Shown in pieces: positions 5,120 through 15,588 of a DNA stretch of 64,000 nucleotides. The stretch comes from Planctomycetota bacterium (lineage in GTDB: Bacteria > Planctomycetota > UBA8108 > SXIK01). The notes below the pieces were generated by a model. The model was not told where the DNA came from, ran no database searches, and saw only the letters and a program-made list of their open reading frames with translations. Location of the stretch: assembly GCA_965223265.1 (NCBI GenBank), contig OZ244999.1, positions 6,336,001 through 6,400,000 of the forward strand. Reading direction: 5' to 3'. Within the stretch, counting starts at the first letter, position 1; every line of letters starts with the position of its first letter. A program made the position numbers and the translations under genes.

Positions 5120-6313
5120 TTATCGCGCAGCGGAAAACTCAAGCGTACCCGCACCGACGAGAAACGCGCTGTATCTCCCATTCTCGGGCCGATTGAGATC
5201 GAGCTCGAACTTCATGGGCTGAAGCGCATCCACGCCAGCACGCAGCCACTCTGCAAGATCACGAGCCAGCAGCACGACGCCGGCTGGCTCCTGGCCACGA
5301 TCGGGGGCTGGAATCAAGGCGCCCAACTCCCGGTAGAGAATCGGAACCAGGGTGCCATCCTTTACCGGATCGAGGATGGCCTCCCGCACCGTACGGGCAA
5401 GCTCATCGCTGCTACCCGAGAATTCAGTGCGAACGGTGAACGAGACATGTCCGTCGCCATGAAAATCACCGACGGCCTCGACACTTTTCCACCCGGAGAG
5501 TAACACGTCATCGCTCGTTAAATCCACGAAGAGCGGGCTCGGTCGCGCAGCAAACTCGAATCCTGCACGGCGTCCCTGTGGCGCGCCTGAGAGGAACGAA
5601 GCTGCGAACTGCGACTTCGGCGCAAGGTTTTTCAGACTCAAGTCGTCCGGACGTGCCAAGGCGAACGGCAAGGAGCGGGCCCTTTGACGCTCGAGCTGAA
5701 GAGCCGCGCGCAAGTAATGCCGAGAGGTCGAGAGGAAAACGAAATCACCCGCCCCAGTAGCACAGAACTCGATCGCTGGGTTGATCAGAGAATACAGGCA
5801 GGTCAGCTCGACGTCACGACGCAAGGCGGCGTCGAGCTCTGCAGCTGGGATTCGCGTTGCCGCAGCGAATAGCGCCTCGCGAAGGGAGCTAAGGATCTTG
5901 TCACGATTCTCCGATCCGACGTCAAAGGCAGCGAGCCACTCGCGGTGTCGGCCGTTGAACCGCGCTGCGACAACAAACTCCCTAGAAATCAGTGGCCACC
6001 AGTCGGTCTGCGCGAAAACGCCTCGGAAGAGTTGAATCTCCTTCTTGCGCAGCTTTAGCTCTTCGCCGCCCGCACGCTGGAGCAGATACCGCCCCCAACC
6101 GTCCAGAAACGACGGCTGTGCTAGAGCATCACGCAGGGCGGTTATGCGAGCCTGCACTTCTTCCTGAGGTGCATCCGGGAGAACAACACGAAGGTAGAGC
6201 TCAGAATCGGCTGGAACGACGTGCGCCAGGGACGCCCCGGCAGACACTGCGGAGCGCGTCGCCGCGACGATGAGAATCGCAGCGAACAGTTTTTTGACGC
6301 CGCTTGGTGACAT
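5120..6313 (-). CDS. Hypothetical exported protein (start uncertain; ORF open to 6433)
   Basis: Long ORF with a signal-peptide-like KKLFAAILIVAA after the ATG at 6313. Confidence 0.55.
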   Translation of the reverse strand: MSPSGVKKLFAAILIVAATRSAVSAGASLAHVVPADSELYLRVVLPDAPQEEVQARITALRDALAQPSFLDGWGRYLLQRAGGEELKLRKKEIQLFRGVFAQTDWWPLISREFVVAARFNGRHREWLAAFDVGSENRDKILSSLREALFAAATRIPAAELDAALRRDVELTCLYSLINPAIEFCATGAGDFVFLSTSRHYLRAALQLERQRARSLPFALARPDDLSLKNLAPKSQFAASFLSGAPQGRRAGFEFAARPSPLFVDLTSDDVLLSGWKSVEAVGDFHGDGHVSFTVRTEFSGSSDELARTVREAILDPVKDGTLVPILYRELGALIPAPDRGQEPAGVVLLARDLAEWLRAGVDALQPMKFELDLNRPENGRYSAFLVGAGTLEFSAAR

Positions 6314-6417
6314 ATCATCGCTCCATAGTCCACGCCGTGAACATCTTGTCGTGATTCTCCGACTCAAGCGTGCATTTGCAGACAGTGTCGCGAGCTTCAC
6401 GCGTGCGAGAATCTTGA

Positions 6418-7410
6418 TCAACTGTACATCCATTCAAGAATCGCTTTTTGCGCATGCAGGCGGTTCTCCGCTTGGCGCATCACCACCGACTGTTGAGAGT
6501 CCATCACCTCGTCCGTGACGACGACGTTACGCCGCACCGGTAAGCAATGCATGAAATACGCCCGCCGCGTCAGCGACATGACCTCCTTGTCGACGATCCA
6601 GTCACCGTGTCGAGCGCGGAGTTCGCTCTCCGCCTCCGCATCTTCGTAACGGGACAGTCCAGCCCAAGCCTTGGCGTAGATCACGTCTGCGTCGCGGGCC
6701 CCTTCATGTCGATCGTGGGTCACCCGCACACTTCCTCCCGCCTTCTTCGTGAAGTCTCGCGCTAAATCCATGATGCCGTCGTGCAGTTCGAACCCAGGAG
6801 GATGCGCCAGCGTTACATCCATGCCGACGCGCGTGGCGGCAAGAAGGATAGAGTTCGCAACCGCCATCGGCAACGCACGTGGATGGCTAGCCCAGGTGAT
6901 GCTGATCTTTCGCCCCTTGAAGCCTTCAAACAGCTCGCGGACCGTAAGCAAGTCTGCCATCGCTTGACATGGATGGTAGACAGCCGACTCCATGTTGAAC
7001 ACGGGAATCTTAGCGTGCTCCATAAAGGATGAAAACGTGCGGTCGAGCAAATCGTTCTCACGGTTCACGCCACGTGCAAAGCAGCGCAGACCGACCCCAT
7101 CGAAATAACGTGACAGCACCCCCATGGCCTCTTGCACGTGCTCGGAACTCTCGCCATCCATTCTCTTTCCGAACTCAGTTTCGAGCTTCCAGAGCGTCTG
7201 CCCTTCCAGATTCGTCACACCAGCGGCGAGTTGTCGGATGGCAACCTCGAAGGAACACCGTGTCCGCAGAGATGGATCGAGAAAAAGGAGGCCGATTTGC
7301 TTGTTCTCGAGTCCCCGGGTGTACCGATTCTCTTTGTGATAGAGCGCACGATCCAAGAACGTGTCGATCTGAGCTGGAGAGAACTCGTTCAGACTGTAGA
7401 AGTGACGCAT
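6418..7410 (-). CDS. argF': N-acetyl/N-succinylornithine carbamoyltransferase (ArgF')
   Basis: PSLRT, LWKLE..MDG..EH, HPCQ, YAKAW and HCLPVRRN motifs of the AOTCase/SOTCase family. Confidence 0.9.
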   Translation of the reverse strand: MRHFYSLNEFSPAQIDTFLDRALYHKENRYTRGLENKQIGLLFLDPSLRTRCSFEVAIRQLAAGVTNLEGQTLWKLETEFGKRMDGESSEHVQEAMGVLSRYFDGVGLRCFARGVNRENDLLDRTFSSFMEHAKIPVFNMESAVYHPCQAMADLLTVRELFEGFKGRKISITWASHPRALPMAVANSILLAATRVGMDVTLAHPPGFELHDGIMDLARDFTKKAGGSVRVTHDRHEGARDADVIYAKAWAGLSRYEDAEAESELRARHGDWIVDKEVMSLTRRAYFMHCLPVRRNVVVTDEVMDSQQSVVMRQAENRLHAQKAILEWMYS

Positions 7411-7580: not shown

Positions 7581-8759
7581 TCACGCAGCGAAAGCCTCGA
7601 ACGCATCAAAGAAGGCAGACCATTCCGCCGCTGTCGCTGTCAGCGGTGGCAGCAGGCGCAAAGTGTTCGGTTCGTCGGCTTTGCCGACCAAAATGCGCCG
7701 CTGCACAAGATGTTTATGGAGCTCCGACGCGGGCTGCTCACACTCGACGCCGATGAGGTAGCCGAGACCGCGCACGTCACGGACGACGCCGCGCCCGATC
7801 ATGCCTCGAAGGCGCTCGATCGCTTCAGCTCCGAGGCGGGCCACCTTGGCGAGGAGCTCTTCCTTGATGATCGTTCGATAGGTCGCCGCCACCGCGGCTG
7901 CCGCGAGCGGTCCACCGCCGAACGTGCTGCCATGGTCGCCTACCTTCACCGCCTCGCTGATCTCGCCGCTTGCGAGTACAACACCGACGGGAAAGCCTCC
8001 GCCGACGCCCTTGGCCGTGGTCACCAGGTCTGGCTCGACGTCCCAATGTGCTCCGGCGAACCACTTTCCGGTTCGACCTGTGCCCGTCTGGACCTCGTCG
8101 AAGATCAACTGGATCCCGTGGGCTGTGCAGTAGTCCCGAAGACCGCGGTAGTAATCGGGCTCCGCCATGTAGACGCCCCGCATGCTCTGCACGGGTTCGA
8201 GCAACACGGCGGCAACGTCGTCGGGTGGCAGCCGCTGGACTGCATCGAGATCACCGAGTTCGACGAAATGCGTGCAACCGACGAGGTTTTCCTGAAACAT
8301 GTTTCGCAATCGCGGACTCCACGTCACGCTCAAACTTGCGATGGTGCGGCCATGAAACCCTCCCTGCATGGCGACCACGGTCGAACGAGCGGTGTGCTTG
8401 CGTGCCAGCTTGAGCGCAGTCTCGTTCGCTTCAGCGCCCGAGTTACAGAAAAAAACGGTGCGCATGGACGTGTAGGAATGTTCGACCAGTAGCTCCGCCG
8501 CCTCGGCACGTTTGGGATGAAAGCAGACGTTCGAATAGAAATCGAGCTCGTCGAGCTGACGCTTCAAGGCGGCAACCCAGGCTGGATGCGAGTGCCCGAG
8601 AAGGGAAACCGCATGGCCACCGTAGAAATCGAGGTAACGATTGCCGCTATCATCCCAGACGTAACAACCCTCTCCCCGCACAAGCGCGAAAGGGAACTTG
8701 CCATAGGTCGGCAGGAGAAACTGTTTCTCCTGTTGGTAGGCTTCTTTGCTTTGGTTCAT
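7581..8759 (-). CDS. argD: Acetyl/succinylornithine aminotransferase (class III PLP)
   Basis: FCNSGAEANE, FHGRT, FDEVQTG, TAKGVGGG and HGSTFGG motifs; arg cluster context. Confidence 0.9.
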   Translation of the reverse strand: MNQSKEAYQQEKQFLLPTYGKFPFALVRGEGCYVWDDSGNRYLDFYGGHAVSLLGHSHPAWVAALKRQLDELDFYSNVCFHPKRAEAAELLVEHSYTSMRTVFFCNSGAEANETALKLARKHTARSTVVAMQGGFHGRTIASLSVTWSPRLRNMFQENLVGCTHFVELGDLDAVQRLPPDDVAAVLLEPVQSMRGVYMAEPDYYRGLRDYCTAHGIQLIFDEVQTGTGRTGKWFAGAHWDVEPDLVTTAKGVGGGFPVGVVLASGEISEAVKVGDHGSTFGGGPLAAAAVAATYRTIIKEELLAKVARLGAEAIERLRGMIGRGVVRDVRGLGYLIGVECEQPASELHKHLVQRRILVGKADEPNTLRLLPPLTATAAEWSAFFDAFEAFAA

Positions 8760-8896: not shown

Positions 8897-9958
8897 TCAT
8901 ACGTATCCGGCAGGAAGTCTCAAACCGGTCGTCTCCGGCAAACCGAAGGCATAGTTAAAGTTTTGAACTGCTTGGCCGGCAGCTCCTTTACCCAGGTTGT
9001 CGATGGCGCTGAAGACGACGCTGCGGTCTGTCTCCCCGGCGATGCCAATCACTGCACGCGGACCTCCTTGCACCCAGCGCAGCTCGGGCGATCCAGAGAC
9101 GACGGACACGAGAGGTGCGTCGTCATAGGCCGCGCGAAATAGGCTCTCGACAGCATCTCGCCCTAGGCCAGGAACGAATGTTGTCGCGAAGATGCCGCGC
9201 ACGAGCGGGCCGGACTGCGGCACAAAGTGGATCTTGAAATCTGTGTCCGTAAGCGTTTTCAGAAGCCCCTCGACCTCGAGCAGATGTTGATGCACGAGCG
9301 GCTTGTAGGCTCGGACGTTGCTCGCACGCTCAGGGTGGTGCGTTGTCTGCAGCGGCTTGTTTCCGGCACCCGATGACCCCGTGAGCGCCGCAACGAAAAC
9401 GTCGCCGCGTAGTTGACCGGCCGCCGCGAGTGGCGCCAAAGCGAGATTGACTGCCGTCGCAAAGCACCCCGGATTCGCAATCAGCCGTGCGCCCGCAAGC
9501 TGTTCTCTACGGTACTCCGTGAAGCCGTAGACGAATTCGGCGAGTTGATCAGGCGCGACGTGCTCACGGCCATAAAACTTCTCGTACGCCGCAGCGTCTT
9601 CACTGCGGAAATCACCGCCGAGATCGATGAAGACGACACCCTGGTGCTCGCGCGCAAGCCTTGGGATGACATCCTGCGAGCTATTGTGCGGCAAGCAGAC
9701 GAACACCGCCTGCGTCTCGCTAATTCGCGCCGACGCCGAGTCAAGATCGATGAACGTCAAATCCAGAAAGTCGCGGAGATTCGGCAGCACACCGCTCACG
9801 TGATTGCCCACCCGCGCATTCGCGCTGATCCAGCGCACGTCGACGCGCGGATGGCCGACCAAGTAACGGAGGATCTCTCCACCGATGTAACCCGAGGCTC
9901 CCAGAACACCGACCGGAATGACCGCGCCGGGTTCGTTCGTCGTGTTTGTCTGTTGCAT
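8897..9958 (-). CDS. argC: N-acetyl-gamma-glutamyl-phosphate reductase
   Basis: GASGYIG, catalytic NPGCF, SGAG and DNLGKGAAGQAVQN. Confidence 0.93.
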   Translation of the reverse strand: MQQTNTTNEPGAVIPVGVLGASGYIGGEILRYLVGHPRVDVRWISANARVGNHVSGVLPNLRDFLDLTFIDLDSASARISETQAVFVCLPHNSSQDVIPRLAREHQGVVFIDLGGDFRSEDAAAYEKFYGREHVAPDQLAEFVYGFTEYRREQLAGARLIANPGCFATAVNLALAPLAAAGQLRGDVFVAALTGSSGAGNKPLQTTHHPERASNVRAYKPLVHQHLLEVEGLLKTLTDTDFKIHFVPQSGPLVRGIFATTFVPGLGRDAVESLFRAAYDDAPLVSVVSGSPELRWVQGGPRAVIGIAGETDRSVVFSAIDNLGKGAAGQAVQNFNYAFGLPETTGLRLPAGYV

Positions 9959-10039
9959 CAAGATTCTCCAGCATCGAATGCGACATCACCCGAGTGGGTG
10001 CCGGCGATCGTGCGCCGGTTGTCATTCGTGCGAATAGCG

Positions 10040-11083
10040 TTAGATTCCGAGCTTGCTCCTGACGAAGCGAGCCAGCTCTTCGGGGCGTTTGTACGCGTTG
10101 ATGGCCGGTGTCCCAAGCTCACGATCAAGCAAATCGACGCCGGCGCGATTGTCGGTGCAAGGCCCGGAGAAGAGATCGATCCCGATCCCCCGCTGCGCCA
10201 GAAACTGCGCGCCTCCCCACGCACCCACAAGATCGGCGGCGCAAAAGGCGTGCATCTGAACGAATCGCTTCAGCTCCTCGTCTTGCAGAATATCGGTGAC
10301 CCCATAGTCACCGAGGATTCCGTCTCCGAGCTCAAGTGCGACCAGATCCGGAGCCCCGCGTGAAAGCGAAGCAATCAACGTCTTTGCGATGGTGACCAGC
10401 TCGGCGGCCGCCAAGCTAGCGGTCGACGCGTAGCCGACGTCGAGAAACGAGGCAGTCGCCGCAGCGCCATGGTCCTCCATCGCGATGAGATCTCTCAAGC
10501 AGGCGATCCCGGTGACCTTACCACCGGCAATCGCCAGGCCCTCCTTCGAAAGCTCTTGGATGAGCTCCGCCAAGAACAGCGTCTTCCCGGAGTCCATCCC
10601 TGTGCCGCTGACGGCCAGAATCGGGGGCACGTCGAGATCCGCGATCGTCTGCGCCGCTTCGATGCTGCCGTCACTTAGCCGCACGATGCGTCCATCACGA
10701 ACAGGCATGCCCAGCACCTCACAGGCGACTGGGACGCCGAAGTCCATATGGTCGCTGGAGCTGACCCCAAGAACGCCACCGCGGTTGAGCAGCTGCAGCG
10801 TATCACCGACTGCGAGTGTCGCCGGTACGTCGCCGCAAAAACCGCGCAGCGCACGACGACGACCGAGCGCGCCGACGAAGAGGTCGCCGCGAAAAATCTT
10901 CGCCATGCGGCCATCCGCTAGCTCGAGTTGGCTGTAGACGCGCTTTTCGCGGAGTGCCCGTACGACAACCGTGTGACCGGCGTGCGCCTCGAGATCGTCT
11001 GTCAACTCGATTTCCTTGTCGAAACCAAGTCGCGACACGACAGACGCAATTTTGTGAACTTTGATCTTCATCGCTGCATCCAT
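10040..11083 (-). CDS. DUF1611/DgcN-like P-loop protein in the arg operon
   Basis: VSGTGMDSGKT P-loop, GKVTG..CLRD and ELGDG motifs; co-oriented between argG and argC. Confidence 0.65.
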   Translation of the reverse strand: MDAAMKIKVHKIASVVSRLGFDKEIELTDDLEAHAGHTVVVRALREKRVYSQLELADGRMAKIFRGDLFVGALGRRRALRGFCGDVPATLAVGDTLQLLNRGGVLGVSSSDHMDFGVPVACEVLGMPVRDGRIVRLSDGSIEAAQTIADLDVPPILAVSGTGMDSGKTLFLAELIQELSKEGLAIAGGKVTGIACLRDLIAMEDHGAAATASFLDVGYASTASLAAAELVTIAKTLIASLSRGAPDLVALELGDGILGDYGVTDILQDEELKRFVQMHAFCAADLVGAWGGAQFLAQRGIGIDLFSGPCTDNRAGVDLLDRELGTPAINAYKRPEELARFVRSKLGI

Positions 11084-11138: not shown

Positions 11139-12368
11139 TCATCCCGTTGCGTCCGTGGTGTGGCCCCCCGCCTGGCGATAGAGCCGCGAGGGAATCGCCA
11201 TCATCGTGCTGAATCCGCGCACATCTTCGCCGCTCCAGAGTTTTGGCATCTCACCGTAGACCCCTGATGCGCCGTGCATCATGCTGTTGGGACTGCGCAC
11301 GGCTTGGACGTCGAACGCTCCCGCCGCGAGTCGCACGCACGCATCGCCGTCGACGCGATCTTGCGACGAGTCAATCAGTGCTTCGATGTCACGCAGCACC
11401 GGCTCAAACGCGTTGCCTTCATGGATCAGCTTGCCGTAGAACTCCGCCATGTGATCTTTCCAGAAACGCTGCCAAGCAGTCGTGGTAATCTTCTCAAGCT
11501 CGCGGTGCGAGTGGATGAGCACCTGGGCAGCGCCGGCTTCGAACGCGATGCGCCCCTTGATTCCGAGCACCGTATCGCCAATGTGAATCCCAAGGCCGAC
11601 GCGATGCCGCCGGCACAGGTCGCCGAGCTTCTGTACGAGTGTGACACCGTCCATGTCGACACCGTTCAGCGCCGTCGGCACGCCGCCCTTGAACGTGATT
11701 TCCACGATCTCCGTTTCCGTCGTCGCCGGCACGCTGACCGCTTGATCATAGAGCGAGTCGGGAATCTTGCTCCACGGGTCGTGCGTCTCGCCGCCGCCGA
11801 TCGTCGCACCCCAGAGCCCGCTGTTGATCGAGTACTGGCGCACCGACTTGTCGATTTCGACGCCACGTTCGGCGAGAAAATCGAACTCTTCATCACGTGT
11901 TAGCTTCTCGTCACGAATCGGCGTCAGAACCGGCACCCCCGGCAGCAGCACCGCGAAGGCAATGTCGAATCGCACTTGGTCATTGCCCGCACCCGTGGAA
12001 CCATGCGCCACGGCCGCAGCGGCTTCGCGCTGGGCGACCTCGGCGATGATTTCCGCCTGCACGACGCGCTCCGCCGCGACGGCGAGCGGATAGACGGCGC
12101 CCCGGAGAACGTTCCCTTTGATCAGGTAGCTGACGTAGCGATCGAAGACTCGGCCGCGTCCGTCGATCGTCTCGTGCGCCAGGACACCGAGACGCCGCGC
12201 GCGCGCCTCAATCTCTTCCAGCTCTTCTGCGCCGAACCCGCCCGTATCGACCGTGACGGTGACGACGTCGTAGCCCTTCTTTTCCCGCAAGTAGGGAATG
12301 CAGTAAGACGTATCCAGTCCGCCGGAATACGCCAGGACGACCTTCTCTTTCCTAGTCATTGTTGTCAC
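11139..12368 (-). CDS. argG: Argininosuccinate synthase
   Basis: LAYSGGLDTS, HGSTGAGNDQVRF and GIKGR motifs. Confidence 0.95.
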   Translation of the reverse strand: MTTMTRKEKVVLAYSGGLDTSYCIPYLREKKGYDVVTVTVDTGGFGAEELEEIEARARRLGVLAHETIDGRGRVFDRYVSYLIKGNVLRGAVYPLAVAAERVVQAEIIAEVAQREAAAAVAHGSTGAGNDQVRFDIAFAVLLPGVPVLTPIRDEKLTRDEEFDFLAERGVEIDKSVRQYSINSGLWGATIGGGETHDPWSKIPDSLYDQAVSVPATTETEIVEITFKGGVPTALNGVDMDGVTLVQKLGDLCRRHRVGLGIHIGDTVLGIKGRIAFEAGAAQVLIHSHRELEKITTTAWQRFWKDHMAEFYGKLIHEGNAFEPVLRDIEALIDSSQDRVDGDACVRLAAGAFDVQAVRSPNSMMHGASGVYGEMPKLWSGEDVRGFSTMMAIPSRLYRQAGGHTTDATG

Positions 12369-13770
12369 CTATTCCTTCGCTGGCTGTGTCTTCCTCATGC
12401 GCCGACTCTGTTAGAAGCTTGCGCACGCGCTGGATCTGACTGCGCACCTGCGCCGGTGCCGTGCCGCCGACGACGGTCTTGTCCGCCAGCGCCGCTTCGA
12501 TGCGCAGCGCGTCGAACACGTCTGCGGCGAACTCTTTGTGAACATCCTGGTAGTCACTGAGCTGCAGCTCCTCGAGTTTCGCGCTCCGCGCCTCGGCGAG
12601 TCGAACGACCCGGCCGACGACGCCGTGGGCCTCACGGAACGCCACGCCCTTGCGCGTCAGGTAGTCCGCCAGCCCCATGGCGTTGAGGAACCCGCCGTCG
12701 AGCGCTGCTTCTGTCCGCTGGCGATCGACCTGCAAGGTTTCGATCGTGGCCCGAAACACCGGCAAGATCAGCTCGATCGTGTCGACGGCATCGAAGAGAC
12801 CTTCCTTGTCTTCCTGGAGATCCTTGTTGTACGTGAGCGGCAGTCCCTTGAGCGTCGTCAGCAGTCCCAGGAGGCTGCCGAACACACGCCCACTCTTTCC
12901 CCGGGCAAGCTCGCACGCATCCGCGTTCTTCTTCTGCGGCAACATCGAGCTGCCCGTGGTCACCGAGTCGTCGAGCGTGGCAAAACCGAACTCCGCCGTC
13001 GACCAAAGGATCAGATCCTCACTCCAGCGCGACAGGTGCACCATCAAAAGCGCCGCAGCGTGAAGAAAGTCGCAGACGAAGTCGCGATCACTGACGGCAT
13101 CCATGGAGTTGTGCGTCAGGCGCTCGAAGCCGAGCTCGGAGCGCAAGAGATCTCGATCGATGCCAAACTGATTGCCAGCACACGCGCCCGATCCGAGCGG
13201 ACACGCATCGCTCTGGTCCGCGGCCCACAGAAACCGCGTGCGGTCGCGCTGCAGCATCTCGGCGTAGGCGAGAAGATGATGCGCAAGGAGTACTGGCTGC
13301 GCGCGCTGCAGGTGCGTGTAGGCTGGAATGACGACGTCGATGGCCCGCTCGGCGGCATCAGCAGTCGCCAGTATGAGGCTGCGCAGTGAAGCGGCCACCT
13401 CCTTGCTCACACGTTTGACGTAAAGCCTCAAGTCCGTCGCGACTTGGTCGTTCCGACTGCGTCCGGTGTGGAGTTTTTCCCCCGCGGCGCCGGCAATCTC
13501 TGTCAGCCGCGATTCGAGGTTCATATGAATGTCTTCGAGCTCGCGCGAGAACGCGAAGCTGCCCGCTTCGATCTCTGCGAGCACTTGACGCAGACCTTCG
13601 CGAATCGAGGTCGCCTCCGCCGACGAAATGAGCCCTCCCTGCTCGAGCGCTTTCGTCCACGCCAGACTGCCCGCGACGTCTTCGCGGTAGAGTCGCTGGT
13701 CAAAATCGATCGACGCGTTGAGTCGCGCCATCGCTCGAGTGAGGCTCTTGCCGAATCGTTCGCTTCGCAT
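12352..13770 (-). CDS. argH: Argininosuccinate lyase
   Basis: EDIH, HTGRSRNDQ, YTHLQRAQP and GSSMLPQKKN. Confidence 0.96.
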   Translation of the reverse strand: MRSERFGKSLTRAMARLNASIDFDQRLYREDVAGSLAWTKALEQGGLISSAEATSIREGLRQVLAEIEAGSFAFSRELEDIHMNLESRLTEIAGAAGEKLHTGRSRNDQVATDLRLYVKRVSKEVAASLRSLILATADAAERAIDVVIPAYTHLQRAQPVLLAHHLLAYAEMLQRDRTRFLWAADQSDACPLGSGACAGNQFGIDRDLLRSELGFERLTHNSMDAVSDRDFVCDFLHAAALLMVHLSRWSEDLILWSTAEFGFATLDDSVTTGSSMLPQKKNADACELARGKSGRVFGSLLGLLTTLKGLPLTYNKDLQEDKEGLFDAVDTIELILPVFRATIETLQVDRQRTEAALDGGFLNAMGLADYLTRKGVAFREAHGVVGRVVRLAEARSAKLEELQLSDYQDVHKEFAADVFDALRIEAALADKTVVGGTAPAQVRSQIQRVRKLLTESAHEEDTASEGIGDNND

Positions 13771-13774
13771 GAGG

Positions 13775-14782
13775 TCAACTCTCCCCCGTCGGCGGTGACT
13801 CTGGTGACGATGACGGTGGTGCGGCGGATGCGTCGTTCGCTCCCGACTCGGCAGTCGCGTCGAGATCCTTCAAGCGATCGCGATAGATCCGCTCCTCGTC
13901 GCGATCGAGAATCATCGTGCCGGTGCCGCGCACGGTGAACACCTCGCACAGCAGAGCGTTCGGCTCGAGACCGTTGATGATGTGCGCTCGCTTCACCCCA
14001 CCACGCACAGCGGCGGCGGCCGTCGTCAACTTAGGGATCATCCCATCCGAGGCTTCGCCACGCTGAATCACGGCGTCGATGTCTTCGAGCGTGAGGTACG
14101 AGTAGCGCGTCGAGGGATCGTTCAAGTCGCGGTACACCCCACTCACATTAGAAAACAAGAACAACTTCTCAGCAGGGAGCGAAGCGGCGATCTCACTGGC
14201 GATGGTGTCGGCGTTGATGTTGAGCACCTGCCCGTCATCGCTACAACCAAGCGAAGCGACGACCGGCACGAATCGCTCCTCGAGAAGAACGCGCAGGACA
14301 TCGGGGCGCACGCTCTGAATGTCGCCGACGTTCTGGAAGTCGACTTCACGCTCGCTCCCGCTAGCATCGTCGTACACTTTCCGGGGCGGCCGTTTGATCG
14401 CTTGGACGAGATCGCCGTCGACGCCAGAGAGTCCGACTCCTGGGGTGCCGTAGCGACGCAGCGCCGCCAAGATATCGGTGGAGATCTGGCCGGCAAAGAC
14501 CATCTTGGCGAGCTCGAGCAGACGGTCATCGGTGATGCGCCGTCCCCCAACCTTCTTGGCTTCGATGCCGAGGCGACCAGCGATGTCGGAGAGCTGCGGC
14601 CCACCGCCATGGATGATCACTAGCCGGATGTTGAGCTCGTGGAGCAAGGCGATCTCTTCGGCCAGAGCGCTGAGGCGCTCCGGATCGGAGACCACTTCGC
14701 CGCCAAACTTGATCACGAAGATCTTGTTGCGGTACTCCTTGATATAAGGGAGCGCCTGCTTGAGGAGTTTGATGTCTTCCAT
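13775..14782 (-). CDS. argB: Acetylglutamate kinase (likely start ATG 14782, MEDIKLLKQALPYI)
   Basis: VIKFGG, HGGG, RITD, NINAD and GMIPK motifs. Confidence 0.92.
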   Translation of the reverse strand: MEDIKLLKQALPYIKEYRNKIFVIKFGGEVVSDPERLSALAEEIALLHELNIRLVIIHGGGPQLSDIAGRLGIEAKKVGGRRITDDRLLELAKMVFAGQISTDILAALRRYGTPGVGLSGVDGDLVQAIKRPPRKVYDDASGSEREVDFQNVGDIQSVRPDVLRVLLEERFVPVVASLGCSDDGQVLNINADTIASEIAASLPAEKLFLFSNVSGVYRDLNDPSTRYSYLTLEDIDAVIQRGEASDGMIPKLTTAAAAVRGGVKRAHIINGLEPNALLCEVFTVRGTGTMILDRDEERIYRDRLKDLDATAESGANDASAAPPSSSPESPPTGES

Positions 14783-15588
14783 AGTATCGAGCCGATTGCC
14801 GGCGAATTCCAACGATTGGACAAGGACGAAGCCCGCATGGTGGCGAATGCACCGCGTTAGGTCAAGGTGACGAGCTCGAGTCGGCCGCGCCGCCTTGAAT
14901 GGGTCCGAACCGCGGCAGAATCGATCCGCGGCGAACCAATCCTCCGGGTGAGGATCGAGCCCCCCGGTAAATTCAGCGCCGCAAGTCAGCGCCCGTTGGT
15001 CAGCGCCGGTCACAGAGACCGCCGGCGGGCGGGCCACCCGTTGCCGAGCGCGACAAGCCGCACTTGCTCTGAGATCGATTCGTCATCGTCGCGATCGGCG
15101 ACGCAAAGGACAAACAAGCTGACGACTTGCCGGAGGTCCGCTCCGGGCGCGGCACCGGTTCCACGCCGCACACTACAGTCGCGCTCTGCAGTGACGTGAG
15201 TGGCCGACACCCACGGCCGCGCGGGCGCTGAGAAGCTTCGCTGCACCCACGAGTGAGGCCGCGCGCGCTGCTCGCGCTCTTATCGACGACGTCTAAGTCG
15301 GTTACGTCTAAATCGGTGCAGTCGAATCGACCGTCGTGTCAGCATGGCTCGGGTCGCTTGGTGGGTTCTTCGGCGCACCGCGCCGGTCGGAAACCCCACG
15401 TTATATCCGTGCTCTCGAGTCACTCCAAGACTTTTCCGGGTAGTCGCGCCTGCGGCCAACGTGATTCTGCTGGCGCCGGGCGTTAAAAAAGGAGAGTGAG
15501 CGGGTAGAATCCGTCTCCCAACAGAGAGCAAACTCGGCGCCCGCGCGCAGAGCGAGTAGCGCAGATCCCCGAGCAAAAAGGAAACCCC

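What the first reader, a model, noticed from the sequence alone, without database searches (positions are those of the whole stretch)
10040..11083. DUF1611/DgcN-like gene in an arg operon with no argA or argJ: possible new N-acylglutamate synthase
Seen: the co-oriented run argB-argH-argG-X-argC-argD-argF' has no GNAT argA, argJ or argE, and X is a P-loop protein (GTGMDSGKT). Known: the DUF1611 member DgcN has been reported as an acetyl-CoA-dependent D-glutamate N-acetyltransferase. Inference: X supplies the first step (L-Glu N-acylation, acetyl or succinyl) or recycles the acyl group, a non-orthologous replacement in arginine biosynthesis. The family assignment is by motif only.
Basis: partly seen in the sequence, partly recalled or inferred. 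Interest (0 to 1): 0.8.

Follow-up and report, generated by a model that had tools for sequence, protein, structure and literature searches.

The report
Predicted P-loop replacement for ArgA
An unnamed, strongly conserved gene inside this planctomycete's arginine operon is most likely the pathway's missing first enzyme, built on an ATP-binding-type fold, but that role has already been predicted in print for what seems to be the same family and is still untested.

Summary
ORF 10040-11083 (-) lies in a co-oriented run argB-argH-argG-X-argC-argD-argF'. The complete 9.18 Mb genome has no ArgJ and no ArgA-type acetyltransferase domain.

X is not a DUF1611/DgcN member. It has no Pfam or NCBIfam hit, and a profile comparison with true DUF1611 gives probability 2.3%. 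A true DUF1611 gene lies elsewhere in the genome.

X belongs to a large unnamed family. Its N-terminal beta domain has no PDB match. Its C-terminal P-loop domain matches BioD, CTP synthase and DUF1611 equally well.

Evidence for a first-step role:
- X follows argG in 74 of 74 testable loci.
- Among 301 Planctomycetota genomes, 105 have X, 129 have ArgJ and 1 has both.
- 32 of 51 X genomes have an ArgE-like M20 gene within 10 kb.
- ArgF' has Ser where acetyl-type enzymes have Glu92, which points to succinyl intermediates.

X is therefore most likely an N-succinyl-L-glutamate synthase. Price et al. (PLoS Genet 2026) already predict this for a Steroidobacter protein of matching description. I could not compare the two sequences. 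Earlier notes of this scan report the same thing on other genomes. No bench test exists, and the acyl donor (succinyl-CoA, or succinate plus ATP) is open.

The parts
10040..11083 (-). Gene X: unnamed two-domain P-loop protein, 347 aa from the first ATG and 343 aa from Met5 at 11071. Candidate N-succinyl-L-glutamate synthase.
   Evidence: ORF and translation. No Pfam or NCBIfam hit. 2069 homologues. Model pLDDT 94.5.
10628..11071 (-). N-terminal beta-rich domain, residues 1 to about 148 of the 343-aa form. Conserved motifs GALGRRRALRGF, LLNxGGVxG and CEVLGM. R72 is kept in 95 of 97 diverse relatives.
   Evidence: Alignments. Domain model pLDDT 91.7. Best PDB match is only Z 3.3, and no Foldseek hit reaches E <= 0.001.
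10043..10627 (-). C-terminal SIMIBI / BioD-like P-loop domain, residues about 149-343.
   Evidence: VIA-align: CTP synthase 7dpt Z 16.6, DUF1611 2g0t Z 16.4, BioD 3of5 Z 16.1, DgcN 7xrj Z 14.6. Foldseek 7xrj E 6.5e-5, rmsd 5.2.
10580..10606 (-). P-loop GTGMDSGKT, of the BioD type G-x5-GKT. Among 97 diverse relatives G162 is kept in 97, K163 in 96 and T164 in 94.
13775..15037 (-). argB, N-acylglutamate kinase. The AA_kinase domain covers residues 105-355 of the 420-aa ORF, so the true start is probably further downstream. There is no GNAT tail.
12352..13770 (-). argH, argininosuccinate lyase
   Evidence: TIGR00838, 569.7 bits:
11139..12368 (-). argG, argininosuccinate synthase
   Evidence: TIGR00032, 304 bits, above the cut-off:
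8897..9961 (-). [quoted passage not shown]
   Evidence: TIGR01850, 333 bits:
7581..8759 (-). argD, N-acylornithine aminotransferase
   Evidence: PF00202, 352 bits; TIGR00707, 399 bits:
6418..7410 (-). argF', N-acylornithine carbamoyltransferase
   Evidence: NF003384, 395.5 bits against a cut-off of 288. Best PDB matches are Xanthomonas AOTCase chains.
7144..7146 (-). Codon of ArgF' Ser89. It aligns with Glu92 of Xanthomonas N-acetylornithine carbamoyltransferase, the residue that sets acetyl versus succinyl specificity.
   Evidence: PDB alignment, in which the E92S mutant chain 3l05 is the top hit. Residue number checked. The rule is quoted from Shi et al. 2007 through Price et al..

Best explanation
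X is the missing first enzyme of this organism's arginine pathway. It N-acylates L-glutamate, and the acyl group is most probably succinyl. The product, N-succinyl-L-glutamate, would then pass through ArgB, ArgC, ArgD, the succinyl-type ArgF', a deacylase encoded elsewhere, ArgG and ArgH.

Shown here:
- the operon position and its conservation across phyla;
- no ArgJ and no ArgA-type acetyltransferase domain found in a complete genome;
- near-perfect mutual exclusion of X and ArgJ;
- a separate ArgE-like hydrolase in many X operons;
- a non-Glu residue at the ArgF' specificity position;
- the BioD/DUF1611-like fold of the C-terminal domain.

Inferred: the reaction itself.

For the acyl donor I lean to succinyl-CoA, about 4 in 10 overall. 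This is by analogy with DgcN, the only enzyme of this fold group known to N-acylate glutamate. In that case the P-loop domain would hold the CoA nucleotide, and the arginine-rich N-terminal domain would hold the dicarboxylate substrates. ATP-driven ligation of free succinate through succinyl phosphate is a serious alternative, about 3 in 10.
For: Own genome (one contig, 9.18 Mb, 91.65% complete by marker genes):
- ArgJ PF01960 has no match.
- TIGR01890 ArgA matches only the kinase part of argB, model positions 3-294 of 429.
- Only two carbamoyltransferase genes exist, one of them argF'.

Synteny in 80 genome-contig loci (Planctomycetota, Terriglobia, Blastocatellia, Clostridia, Cloacimonadota and Wallbacteria MAGs):
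- argG is directly upstream in 74 of 74 testable loci.
- argC is directly downstream in 74 of 76 by script. One further locus, L047, counts on inspection. In L059 argC lies 5 kb away.
- ArgR lies upstream in 63 of 80.

Phyletic pattern in 301 Planctomycetota genomes:
- 105 have full-length X, 129 have ArgJ above the cut-off, 1 has both (G076) and 68 have neither.
- The split also occurs inside families. In f9, 3 of 8 have X and 3 of 8 have ArgJ. In f25, 4 of 8 have X and 4 of 8 have ArgJ. No genome in either family has both.

The deacylase step is covered separately:
- An M20 gene lies inside the arg operon in L055 and L110.
- Relatives of the L110 M20 gene lie within 10 kb of X on the same contig in 32 of 51 X genomes, on another contig in 13, and were not found in 6.

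Acyl type: the residue equivalent to ArgF' Glu92 is Ser in the window. Across 63 ArgF' sequences next to X it is Thr in 50, Ala in 8 and Ser in 5, and never Glu.

Fold: the C-terminal domain matches DgcN 7xrj, an N-acetyltransferase by its PDB title, and DUF1611 structures.

Fusions with arg enzymes exist: X-AA_kinase (P0158), X-ArgC and ArgG-X.

Print: Price et al. predict the same role for a protein of matching description.
Against: - No biochemical or genetic test exists for any member. The paper calls it a prediction.
- A 9 Mb genome holds many generic GNATs, so an unrecognised GNAT-type synthase cannot be excluded. I did not search them all.
- In the window's own genome the deacylase step is also unassigned. 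The operon-type M20 was not found at E <= 1e-30. The best ArgE-like gene (L034, TIGR01892 264 bits, below the cut-off of 297.7) has orthologues only in ArgJ-bearing families, 16 of 16 in f8. X could therefore in principle fill either gap here.
- 68 of 301 genomes have neither X nor ArgJ, so other solutions exist.
- Related genomes are not independent, so the Fisher p value overstates the case.
- The fusion proteins are single-member clusters, mostly with the immediate gene neighbours, and may be gene-calling artefacts.
- Thr, the commonest residue at the ArgF' position, was not among the tested substitutions.
Confidence: 0.7

Rival explanations
1. X makes N-acetyl-L-glutamate, not N-succinyl-L-glutamate, and the pathway is the Xanthomonas-type acetylcitrulline route, as the first reader first suggested.
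For: NCBIfam names ArgF' an N-acetylornithine carbamoyltransferase (NF003384, 395.5 bits). The closest solved enzymes are Xanthomonas AOTCase chains. DgcN, the nearest characterised fold relative that acylates glutamate, uses acetyl-CoA (EC 2.3.1.312 as quoted in PMC11747546).
Against: The window's ArgF' has Ser at the Glu92 position. The E92S mutant chain is its best PDB hit. According to Shi et al. 2007, as quoted by Price et al., E92A/P/S/V switches the enzyme to N-succinylornithine. None of the 63 ArgF' sequences beside X has Glu there.
Confidence: 0.1
2. X acts at the other missing step. It removes the acyl group from N-acylcitrulline, or passes it from N-acylcitrulline to glutamate in an ArgJ-like cycle.
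For: X and ArgJ exclude each other, and ArgJ covers both steps. In the window's own genome no conserved deacylase partner was identified. Price et al. note that Steroidobacter also lacks a recognised ArgE.
Against: 32 of 51 X genomes carry an ArgE-like M20 hydrolase within 10 kb of X, so the hydrolase step has its own gene there. I know of no amide hydrolysis or acyl transfer among the P-loop BioD-like enzymes that matched. That point rests on my knowledge of the families, not on a call.
Confidence: 0.07
3. X has no catalytic role in the pathway. It is a nucleotide-dependent regulator, chaperone or assembly factor for the arginine enzymes, as many SIMIBI NTPases are (UreG, HypB, ApbC, MinD).
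For: The fold list holds many such proteins at Z 12-15: UreG 15.1, ApbC 14.8, HypB 14.1. The Walker A GKT is intact.
Against: This would leave the first step with no gene in 104 genomes that have X and lack ArgJ. None of the arginine enzymes matched is, to my knowledge, a metalloenzyme needing such a factor. The best fold matches are the enzyme branch: CTP synthase, BioD and DUF1611. The large, strongly conserved, Arg-rich N-terminal domain looks like a substrate-binding module, which is an inference.
Confidence: 0.08

Closest known systems
[quoted passage not shown] I read passages of the main text and part 1 of S1 Text.
   Same: Both are hypothetical proteins embedded in arginine clusters with argB/C/D/F'/G/H/R. 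Neither occurs with a canonical ArgA. Both show only a remote Foldseek match to DgcN 7XRJ: the paper gives rmsd 5.6 and E 1.4e-7, and here it is rmsd 5.2 and E 6.5e-5. In both, the neighbouring ArgF' lacks Glu92. Some clusters hold an argE candidate.
   Different: I could not obtain the Steroidobacter sequence, so the shared family is inferred from the matching description and not from an alignment. The paper reports exclusion from Pseudomonas-type ArgA. Added here: exclusion from ArgJ in Planctomycetota, the failed DUF1611 membership tests, the N-terminal domain with no PDB match, and the GKT-versus-GKM difference.
DgcN, D-glutamate N-acetyltransferase (DUF1611, PF07755 + PF17396; PDB 7XRJ; EC 2.3.1.312). 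The primary paper, Yu et al. ISME J 2023, is not held. I saw only its citation, the PDB title and a mention in PMC11747546.
   Same: The C-terminal P-loop domain has the same general fold (Z 14.6, rmsd 3.6 over 181 residues). The proposed chemistry is the same: N-acylation of glutamate.
   Different: X has no HMM match, and hhalign gives probability 2.3%. The N-terminal domain is beta-rich and not the Rossmann-like DUF1611_N. The P-loop ends in GKT in X and in GKM in the 14 DUF1611 sequences aligned. X acts on the L-substrate in biosynthesis, not in D-Glu catabolism. X has no racemase neighbour, whereas the genome's true DUF1611 gene lies beside an enolase-superfamily gene.
Dethiobiotin synthetase BioD and the amidoligase domain of CTP synthase (ATP-dependent C-N ligases of the SIMIBI class)
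   Same: These are the best or tied-best fold matches: 7dpt Z 16.6, 3of5 Z 16.1, 1a82 Z 15.9. The P-loop is G-x5-GKT as in BioD. An invariant Lys (K185) aligns with the BioD Lys after strand 2, in a non-significant HMMER alignment (E 0.23). An invariant Glu (E247) sits in an ELGDG motif that resembles the BioD EGAGG motif; the BioD motif is recalled, not taken from a call.
   Different: There is no significant sequence similarity. X has an extra 148-residue N-terminal domain. The substrates differ. ATP use by X is untested.
GNAT-type N-acylglutamate synthases (ArgA; the N-succinylglutamate synthase of Bacteroidota) and ArgJ
   Same: They have the same proposed place in the pathway. X sits in an argR-argG-X-argC-argD-argF'-argB operon. 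As I recall it, this resembles the Bacteroidota operon in which a GNAT gene lies near argG.
   Different: The fold is unrelated. X has no GNAT or ArgJ HMM match.

Membership tests
DUF1611 / DgcN (PF07755 + PF17396) | Match to PF07755 (DUF1611_C) above the gathering score | tested here: not met
   X has no Pfam hit at E <= 0.001. At E <= 10 the only hit is MobB at 0.045. Distant family members give sub-threshold hits limited to the P-loop.
DUF1611 / DgcN (PF07755 + PF17396) | Rossmann-like N-terminal domain (PF17396) | tested here: not met
   No hit. The modelled N-terminal domain is mostly beta strands. The genome's true DUF1611 protein has PF17396.
DUF1611 / DgcN (PF07755 + PF17396) | Profile-profile homology to bona fide DUF1611 proteins | tested here: not met
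   hhalign of A1 (40 X relatives) against A2 (14 DUF1611 proteins of Planctomycetota): probability 2.3%, E 0.02, with only 49 C-terminal columns aligned.
DUF1611 / DgcN (PF07755 + PF17396) | Fold of the P-loop domain like solved DUF1611 structures | tested here: met
   2g0t Z 16.4, 2obn Z 15.2, 7xrj Z 14.6. These are tied with CTP synthase at 16.6 and BioD at 16.1, so the match is not specific.
DUF1611 / DgcN (PF07755 + PF17396) | Acyl-CoA-dependent N-acylation of glutamate | not testable with these tools
   Needs an enzyme assay.
[quoted passage not shown] 2026) | Hypothetical protein encoded inside arginine biosynthesis clusters | tested here: met
   Window operon. argG adjacent upstream in 74 of 74 testable loci and argC adjacent downstream in 74 of 76.
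[quoted passage not shown] 2026) | No canonical ArgA in the same genome | tested here: met
   TIGR01890 hits only the argB kinase domain. ArgJ has no match.
[quoted passage not shown] 2026) | Neighbouring ArgF' has A/P/S/V (or I/T), not Glu, at position 92 | tested here: met
   Ser89 in the window. Across 63 sequences: Thr 50, Ala 8, Ser 5.
[quoted passage not shown] 2026) | Remote structural similarity to DgcN 7XRJ | tested here: met
   Foldseek E 6.5e-5, rmsd 5.2, 244 columns.
[quoted passage not shown] 2026) | [quoted passage not shown] | not testable with these tools
   The sequence could not be obtained. Searches did not reach it.
BioD-like ATP-dependent ligases (SIMIBI class) | Fold, with an intact Walker A Lys-Thr and an acidic Walker-B-like residue | tested here: met
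   Fold. Among 97 diverse relatives, G162 is kept in 97, K163 in 96, T164 in 94, K185 in 97 and E247 in 96.
BioD-like ATP-dependent ligases (SIMIBI class) | Sequence-level membership (PF13500 AAA_26 or a significant PDB BioD hit) | tested here: not met
   X has no PF13500 hit. The A1 profile against Mtb BioD gives E 0.23.
GNAT ArgA / ArgJ | GNAT or ArgJ domain | tested here: not met
   No such hit in X.

The most novel reading that the evidence does not exclude
X is not a CoA-dependent transferase like DgcN. It is an ATP-dependent, ADP-forming succinate--L-glutamate ligase. The BioD-type site would phosphorylate free succinate to succinyl phosphate. The amino group of a glutamate held by the N-terminal domain, which matched no solved structure here, would then attack it. 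That would be a new reaction for the first step of arginine synthesis. In chemistry it parallels the ATP-grasp ArgX/LysX step of the LysW pathway, but on a different fold.

Grounds:
- The family keeps the full Mg-NTP set over its whole range, fungal members included: GKT, K185, D194 and E247, each in at least 93 of 97 sequences.
- The 14 DUF1611 proteins aligned end the P-loop in GKM.
- The top fold matches, CTP synthase and BioD, act through phosphorylated intermediates. This last point rests on my knowledge of those families.
Probability: 0.3. Interest if true: 0.75.

Novelty: new member of a known kind. Interest (0 to 1): 0.4.

Why it matters
If X is the first enzyme, arginine-pathway gaps close in a third of the Planctomycetota sampled here (105 of 301 genomes) and in many Acidobacteriota and other phyla. 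These genomes would then be read as prototrophs, not auxotrophs. It would also show that a P-loop fold took over a job that GNAT or ArgJ enzymes do elsewhere.

The functional prediction is already in print and in GapMind, so the remaining value lies in three things:
- the bench test;
- the open acyl-donor question, succinyl-CoA against succinate plus ATP;
- the N-terminal domain, which matched no solved structure here.

Tried and rejected
Same family as the published protein. I tried to obtain the Steroidobacter protein or a named gammaproteobacterial relative.
- Cluster look-ups of 20 family representatives gave no such organism name; two were Aspergillus proteins.
- An E. coli K-12 locus fetched to get a Gammaproteobacteria handle gave only a W handle, which has no relatives.
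- A search from representative P0130 returned Planctomycetota names only.
- The link therefore rests on the matching description.

DUF1611 membership. Pfam, NCBIfam and hhalign all failed.

The genome's true DUF1611 gene as the missing synthase. Rejected. In 151 genomes it has strong matches in 43: 30 with ArgJ, 7 with X and 6 with neither. In this genome it lies beside an enolase-superfamily gene far from the arg operon.

The ArgE-like gene L034 as X's conserved partner. Rejected. Its orthologues at E <= 1e-60 are in 19 of 301 genomes, 16 of them in family f8, an ArgJ-bearing family with ArgJ in 15 of its 16 genomes, and none in the window's own family.

The 437-aa ORF after argF' as a missing enzyme. 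Rejected. It has no family hit and its N-terminus looks like a signal peptide.

The PF04768 (NAT) search of the genome was uninformative, because the control genomes did not ring.

N-terminal domain fold. No convincing match; best Z 3.3, to LexA-type domains.

Fusion search. There are 6 longer proteins, each a single-member cluster, fused mostly to the gene neighbours. This is weak evidence.

Literature. Searches for DgcN, DUF1611 and D-glutamate N-acetyltransferase found nothing on X. A Planctomycetes plus N-acetylglutamate synthase search listed two papers that I did not open. Yu et al. 2023 is not held.

A search of earlier findings by sequence found nothing.

Gaps inside some Blastocatellia operons hold FG-GAP proteins or proteins with no Pfam family, and no GNAT.
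Full report
OBSERVATION

The ORF at 10040-11083 on the minus strand is real. It encodes 347 aa from the first ATG, and 343 aa from the second Met in the public gene call. It carries GTGMDSGKT.

It lies in a tight co-oriented run:
- argB, 13775-15037
- argH, 12352-13770
- argG, 11139-12368
- X, 10040-11083
- argC, 8897-9961
- argD, 7581-8759
- argF', 6418-7410; NCBIfam N-acetylornithine carbamoyltransferase, 395.5 bits against a cut-off of 288

Pfam scans of 52 window ORFs found no GNAT, ArgJ or M20 family. The window is part of a one-contig 9.18 Mb genome, 91.65% complete by marker genes. Names on database hits place it in Planctomycetota.

IS THE PATHWAY REALLY MISSING STEPS?

- ArgJ (PF01960) has no match in the whole genome, while the control rang in 10 of 14 known genomes.
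- The ArgA model TIGR01890 matches only the kinase part of argB, model positions 3-294 of 429, so no ArgA-type acetyltransferase domain was found.
- There are only two carbamoyltransferase genes, one of them argF'. The route must therefore pass through an N-acylornithine carbamoyltransferase, and it needs an acyl-citrulline deacylase.
- Ten M20 genes exist. The best ArgE-like one is L034, with TIGR01892 at 264 bits, below the cut-off of 297.7.

WHAT X IS NOT

X has no Pfam or NCBIfam hit at E <= 0.001. At E <= 10 the only hit is MobB at 0.045. A profile of 40 X relatives compared with a profile of 14 true DUF1611 proteins gives probability 2.3%.

The genome has a separate true DUF1611 gene, carrying PF17396 and PF07755, at G000:C1:9121288-9122571. 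It lies beside an enolase-superfamily gene. In 151 Planctomycetota genomes, strong DUF1611 matches occur in 43: 30 with ArgJ, 7 with X and 6 with neither.

WHAT X IS

X belongs to a large unnamed family: 2069 proteins at E <= 0.001 in one search, and 1264 clusters at 50% identity in another, all called hypothetical. Members named in the records come from Planctomycetota, Acidobacteriota, Clostridia, Cloacimonadota and Wallbacteria. Two distant ones are from Aspergillus.

The AlphaFold model is confident, with pLDDT 94.5. It has two domains.
- Residues about 149-343 form a SIMIBI P-loop domain. Its best matches are tied: CTP synthase 7dpt Z 16.6, DUF1611 2g0t Z 16.4, BioD 3of5 Z 16.1, DgcN 7xrj Z 14.6. 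Foldseek gives 7xrj E 6.5e-5 and rmsd 5.2.
- Residues 1 to about 148 form a beta-rich domain. Modelled alone it has pLDDT 91.7. It has no convincing PDB match: best Z is 3.3, and no Foldseek hit reaches E <= 0.001.

Across 97 diverse relatives the following residues are kept:
- G162 in 97, K163 in 96, T164 in 94
- K185 in 97, D194 in 93, D211 in 93, E247 in 96
- R72, in the N-terminal domain, in 95

EVIDENCE THAT X BELONGS TO ARGININE SYNTHESIS

In 80 loci from named MAGs, argG lies directly upstream in 74 of 74 testable cases. argC lies directly downstream in 74 of 76 by script. One more locus, L047, counts on inspection, and in L059 argC is 5 kb away. ArgR lies upstream in 63 of 80. About 63 of the 80 loci are Blastocatellia or Pyrinomonadaceae, so they are not independent.

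Rare fusions exist: X-AA_kinase (P0158), X-ArgC (P0293, P0296, P0297) and ArgG-X (P0294, P0295). Each is a single-member cluster.

WHICH STEP?

In 301 Planctomycetota genomes, 118 match the X profile at E <= 0.001. I classed them as follows:
- 105 full length, with E <= 1.4e-84
- 5 paralogue-like, with E about 1e-38 to 1e-49
- 8 P-loop only

ArgJ is above its cut-off in 129 genomes. Only G076 has both. That assembly is 12.3 Mb, 87% complete and 3% contaminated. 68 genomes have neither. The split recurs inside families: in f9, 3 of 8 have X and 3 of 8 have ArgJ; in f25, 4 and 4 of 8; no genome in either has both.

ArgJ covers both the first step and the deacylation, so this pattern alone does not tell which step X fills. 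The deciding evidence is the deacylase:
- Two arg operons carry an M20 gene beside X, in L055 and L110.
- Relatives of the L110 M20 gene lie within 10 kb of X on the same contig in 32 of 51 X genomes. They lie on another contig in 13 and were not found in 6, including the window's own genome.
- Only two genomes without X reach E <= 1e-37 with this query.

In these operons every step except the first has its own gene. That leaves the first step for X.

Against this, the deacylase in the window's own genome is not identified. Orthologues of L034 are confined to ArgJ-bearing families, 16 of 16 in f8, and are absent from the window's family.

ACETYL OR SUCCINYL?

The window's ArgF' aligns best with the E92S mutant chain of Xanthomonas AOTCase, and it has Ser89 at that position. 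Price et al. quote Shi et al. 2007: E92A/P/S/V switches the enzyme to N-succinylornithine. Among 63 ArgF' sequences next to X the residue is Thr in 50, Ala in 8 and Ser in 5, and never Glu. Succinyl is therefore the better guess. Thr itself was not among the tested substitutions.

PRIOR ART

Earlier notes of this scan pointed to a preprint, which I then read in passages. [quoted passage not shown] - They propose ACG33_RS14135 of Steroidobacter denitrificans for this role.
- It is a hypothetical protein 'virtually always' found in arg operons.
- It is never found with Pseudomonas-type ArgA, and it occurs in 109 genera.
- It has a weak Foldseek match to 7XRJ.
- ArgF' position 92 is A/P/S/V in 90% of 70 cases.
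- The role is labelled a prediction, with no assay.

Every feature I could test matches X. I could not fetch the Steroidobacter sequence, so the shared family is inferred and not shown. The notes returned describe the same situation on other genomes: 8 were shown, and 23 hold the search words.

MECHANISM

The printed model rests on the analogy with DgcN, an acetyl-CoA-dependent D-glutamate N-acetyltransferase. For DgcN I saw only EC 2.3.1.312 as quoted in PMC11747546 and the PDB title; the primary paper is not held.

I lean to succinyl-CoA as the donor, but two observations keep an ATP-driven ligase open. First, X keeps GKT, K185 and E247 across the whole family, whereas the DUF1611 proteins aligned here have GKM. 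Second, a non-significant alignment (E 0.23) places K185 on the BioD lysine after strand 2. The best fold matches, CTP synthase and BioD, work through phosphorylated intermediates; that rests on my knowledge of those families. The Arg-rich conserved N-terminal domain would suit dicarboxylate substrates, which is an inference.

VERDICT

The functional idea is well supported. The family label is wrong. The idea is already published as a prediction.

What remains open:
- the bench test
- the acyl donor
- the N-terminal domain
- the deacylase of this genome

Noticed in passing
window 5120-6433 (-): A 437-aa ORF overlaps the end of argF' by 16 bases. It has no Pfam or NCBIfam family. A hydrophobic stretch after Met41 looks like a signal peptide. 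It seems to be an exported protein of unknown function at the tail of the arg operon.
   Followed up: partly
L146:4118-7068 (G260) and L148:4148-6970 (G089): Distant paralogues of X (E about 1e-42 to the X profile) lie directly after a flavin-reductase gene and an M20 peptidase gene on the same strand. ArgJ was not found in either genome. G260 is the one member of family f8 without it. This may be a second acylase/deacylase pairing in the family.
   Followed up: partly
P0188, P0191: Two family representatives, about 30% identical to X, are annotated from Aspergillus melleus and Aspergillus avenaceus. The family therefore reaches fungi, where its role is unknown.
   Followed up: no
G000:C1:9120204-9122571 (L151:4205-6572): The genome's true DUF1611 gene (PF17396 + PF07755, 427-aa ORF) lies tail to tail with an enolase-superfamily (MR_MLE) gene. 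This is the pairing expected for a DgcN/DgcA-like system. The same pairing appears in L134.
   Followed up: partly
Planctomycetota genomes: 68 of 301 genomes have neither X nor ArgJ. They include all 14 sampled genomes of families f3, f4 and f5, in the window's own order and class. How they make N-acylglutamate, or whether they make arginine at all, was not examined.
   Followed up: no
G076: This is the only genome with both full-length X and ArgJ. The assembly is 12.3 Mb, 87% complete and 3% contaminated. It could hold real redundancy or a mixed bin.
   Followed up: no
window 13775-15037 (-): The argB ORF runs about 100 residues upstream of the AA_kinase domain, which covers residues 105-355 of 420. 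The real start is probably an internal codon. No family matches the extension.
   Followed up: no
L064:12651-14372, L071:12477-14744, L073:13232-14599, L115:13051-14388, L120:12734-14101: Some Pyrinomonadaceae arg operons have a 1.5-2.6 kb insert between argD and argF'. It holds either an opposite-strand FG-GAP/DUF5122 gene or a same-strand gene of about 450 aa with no Pfam family.
   Followed up: partly
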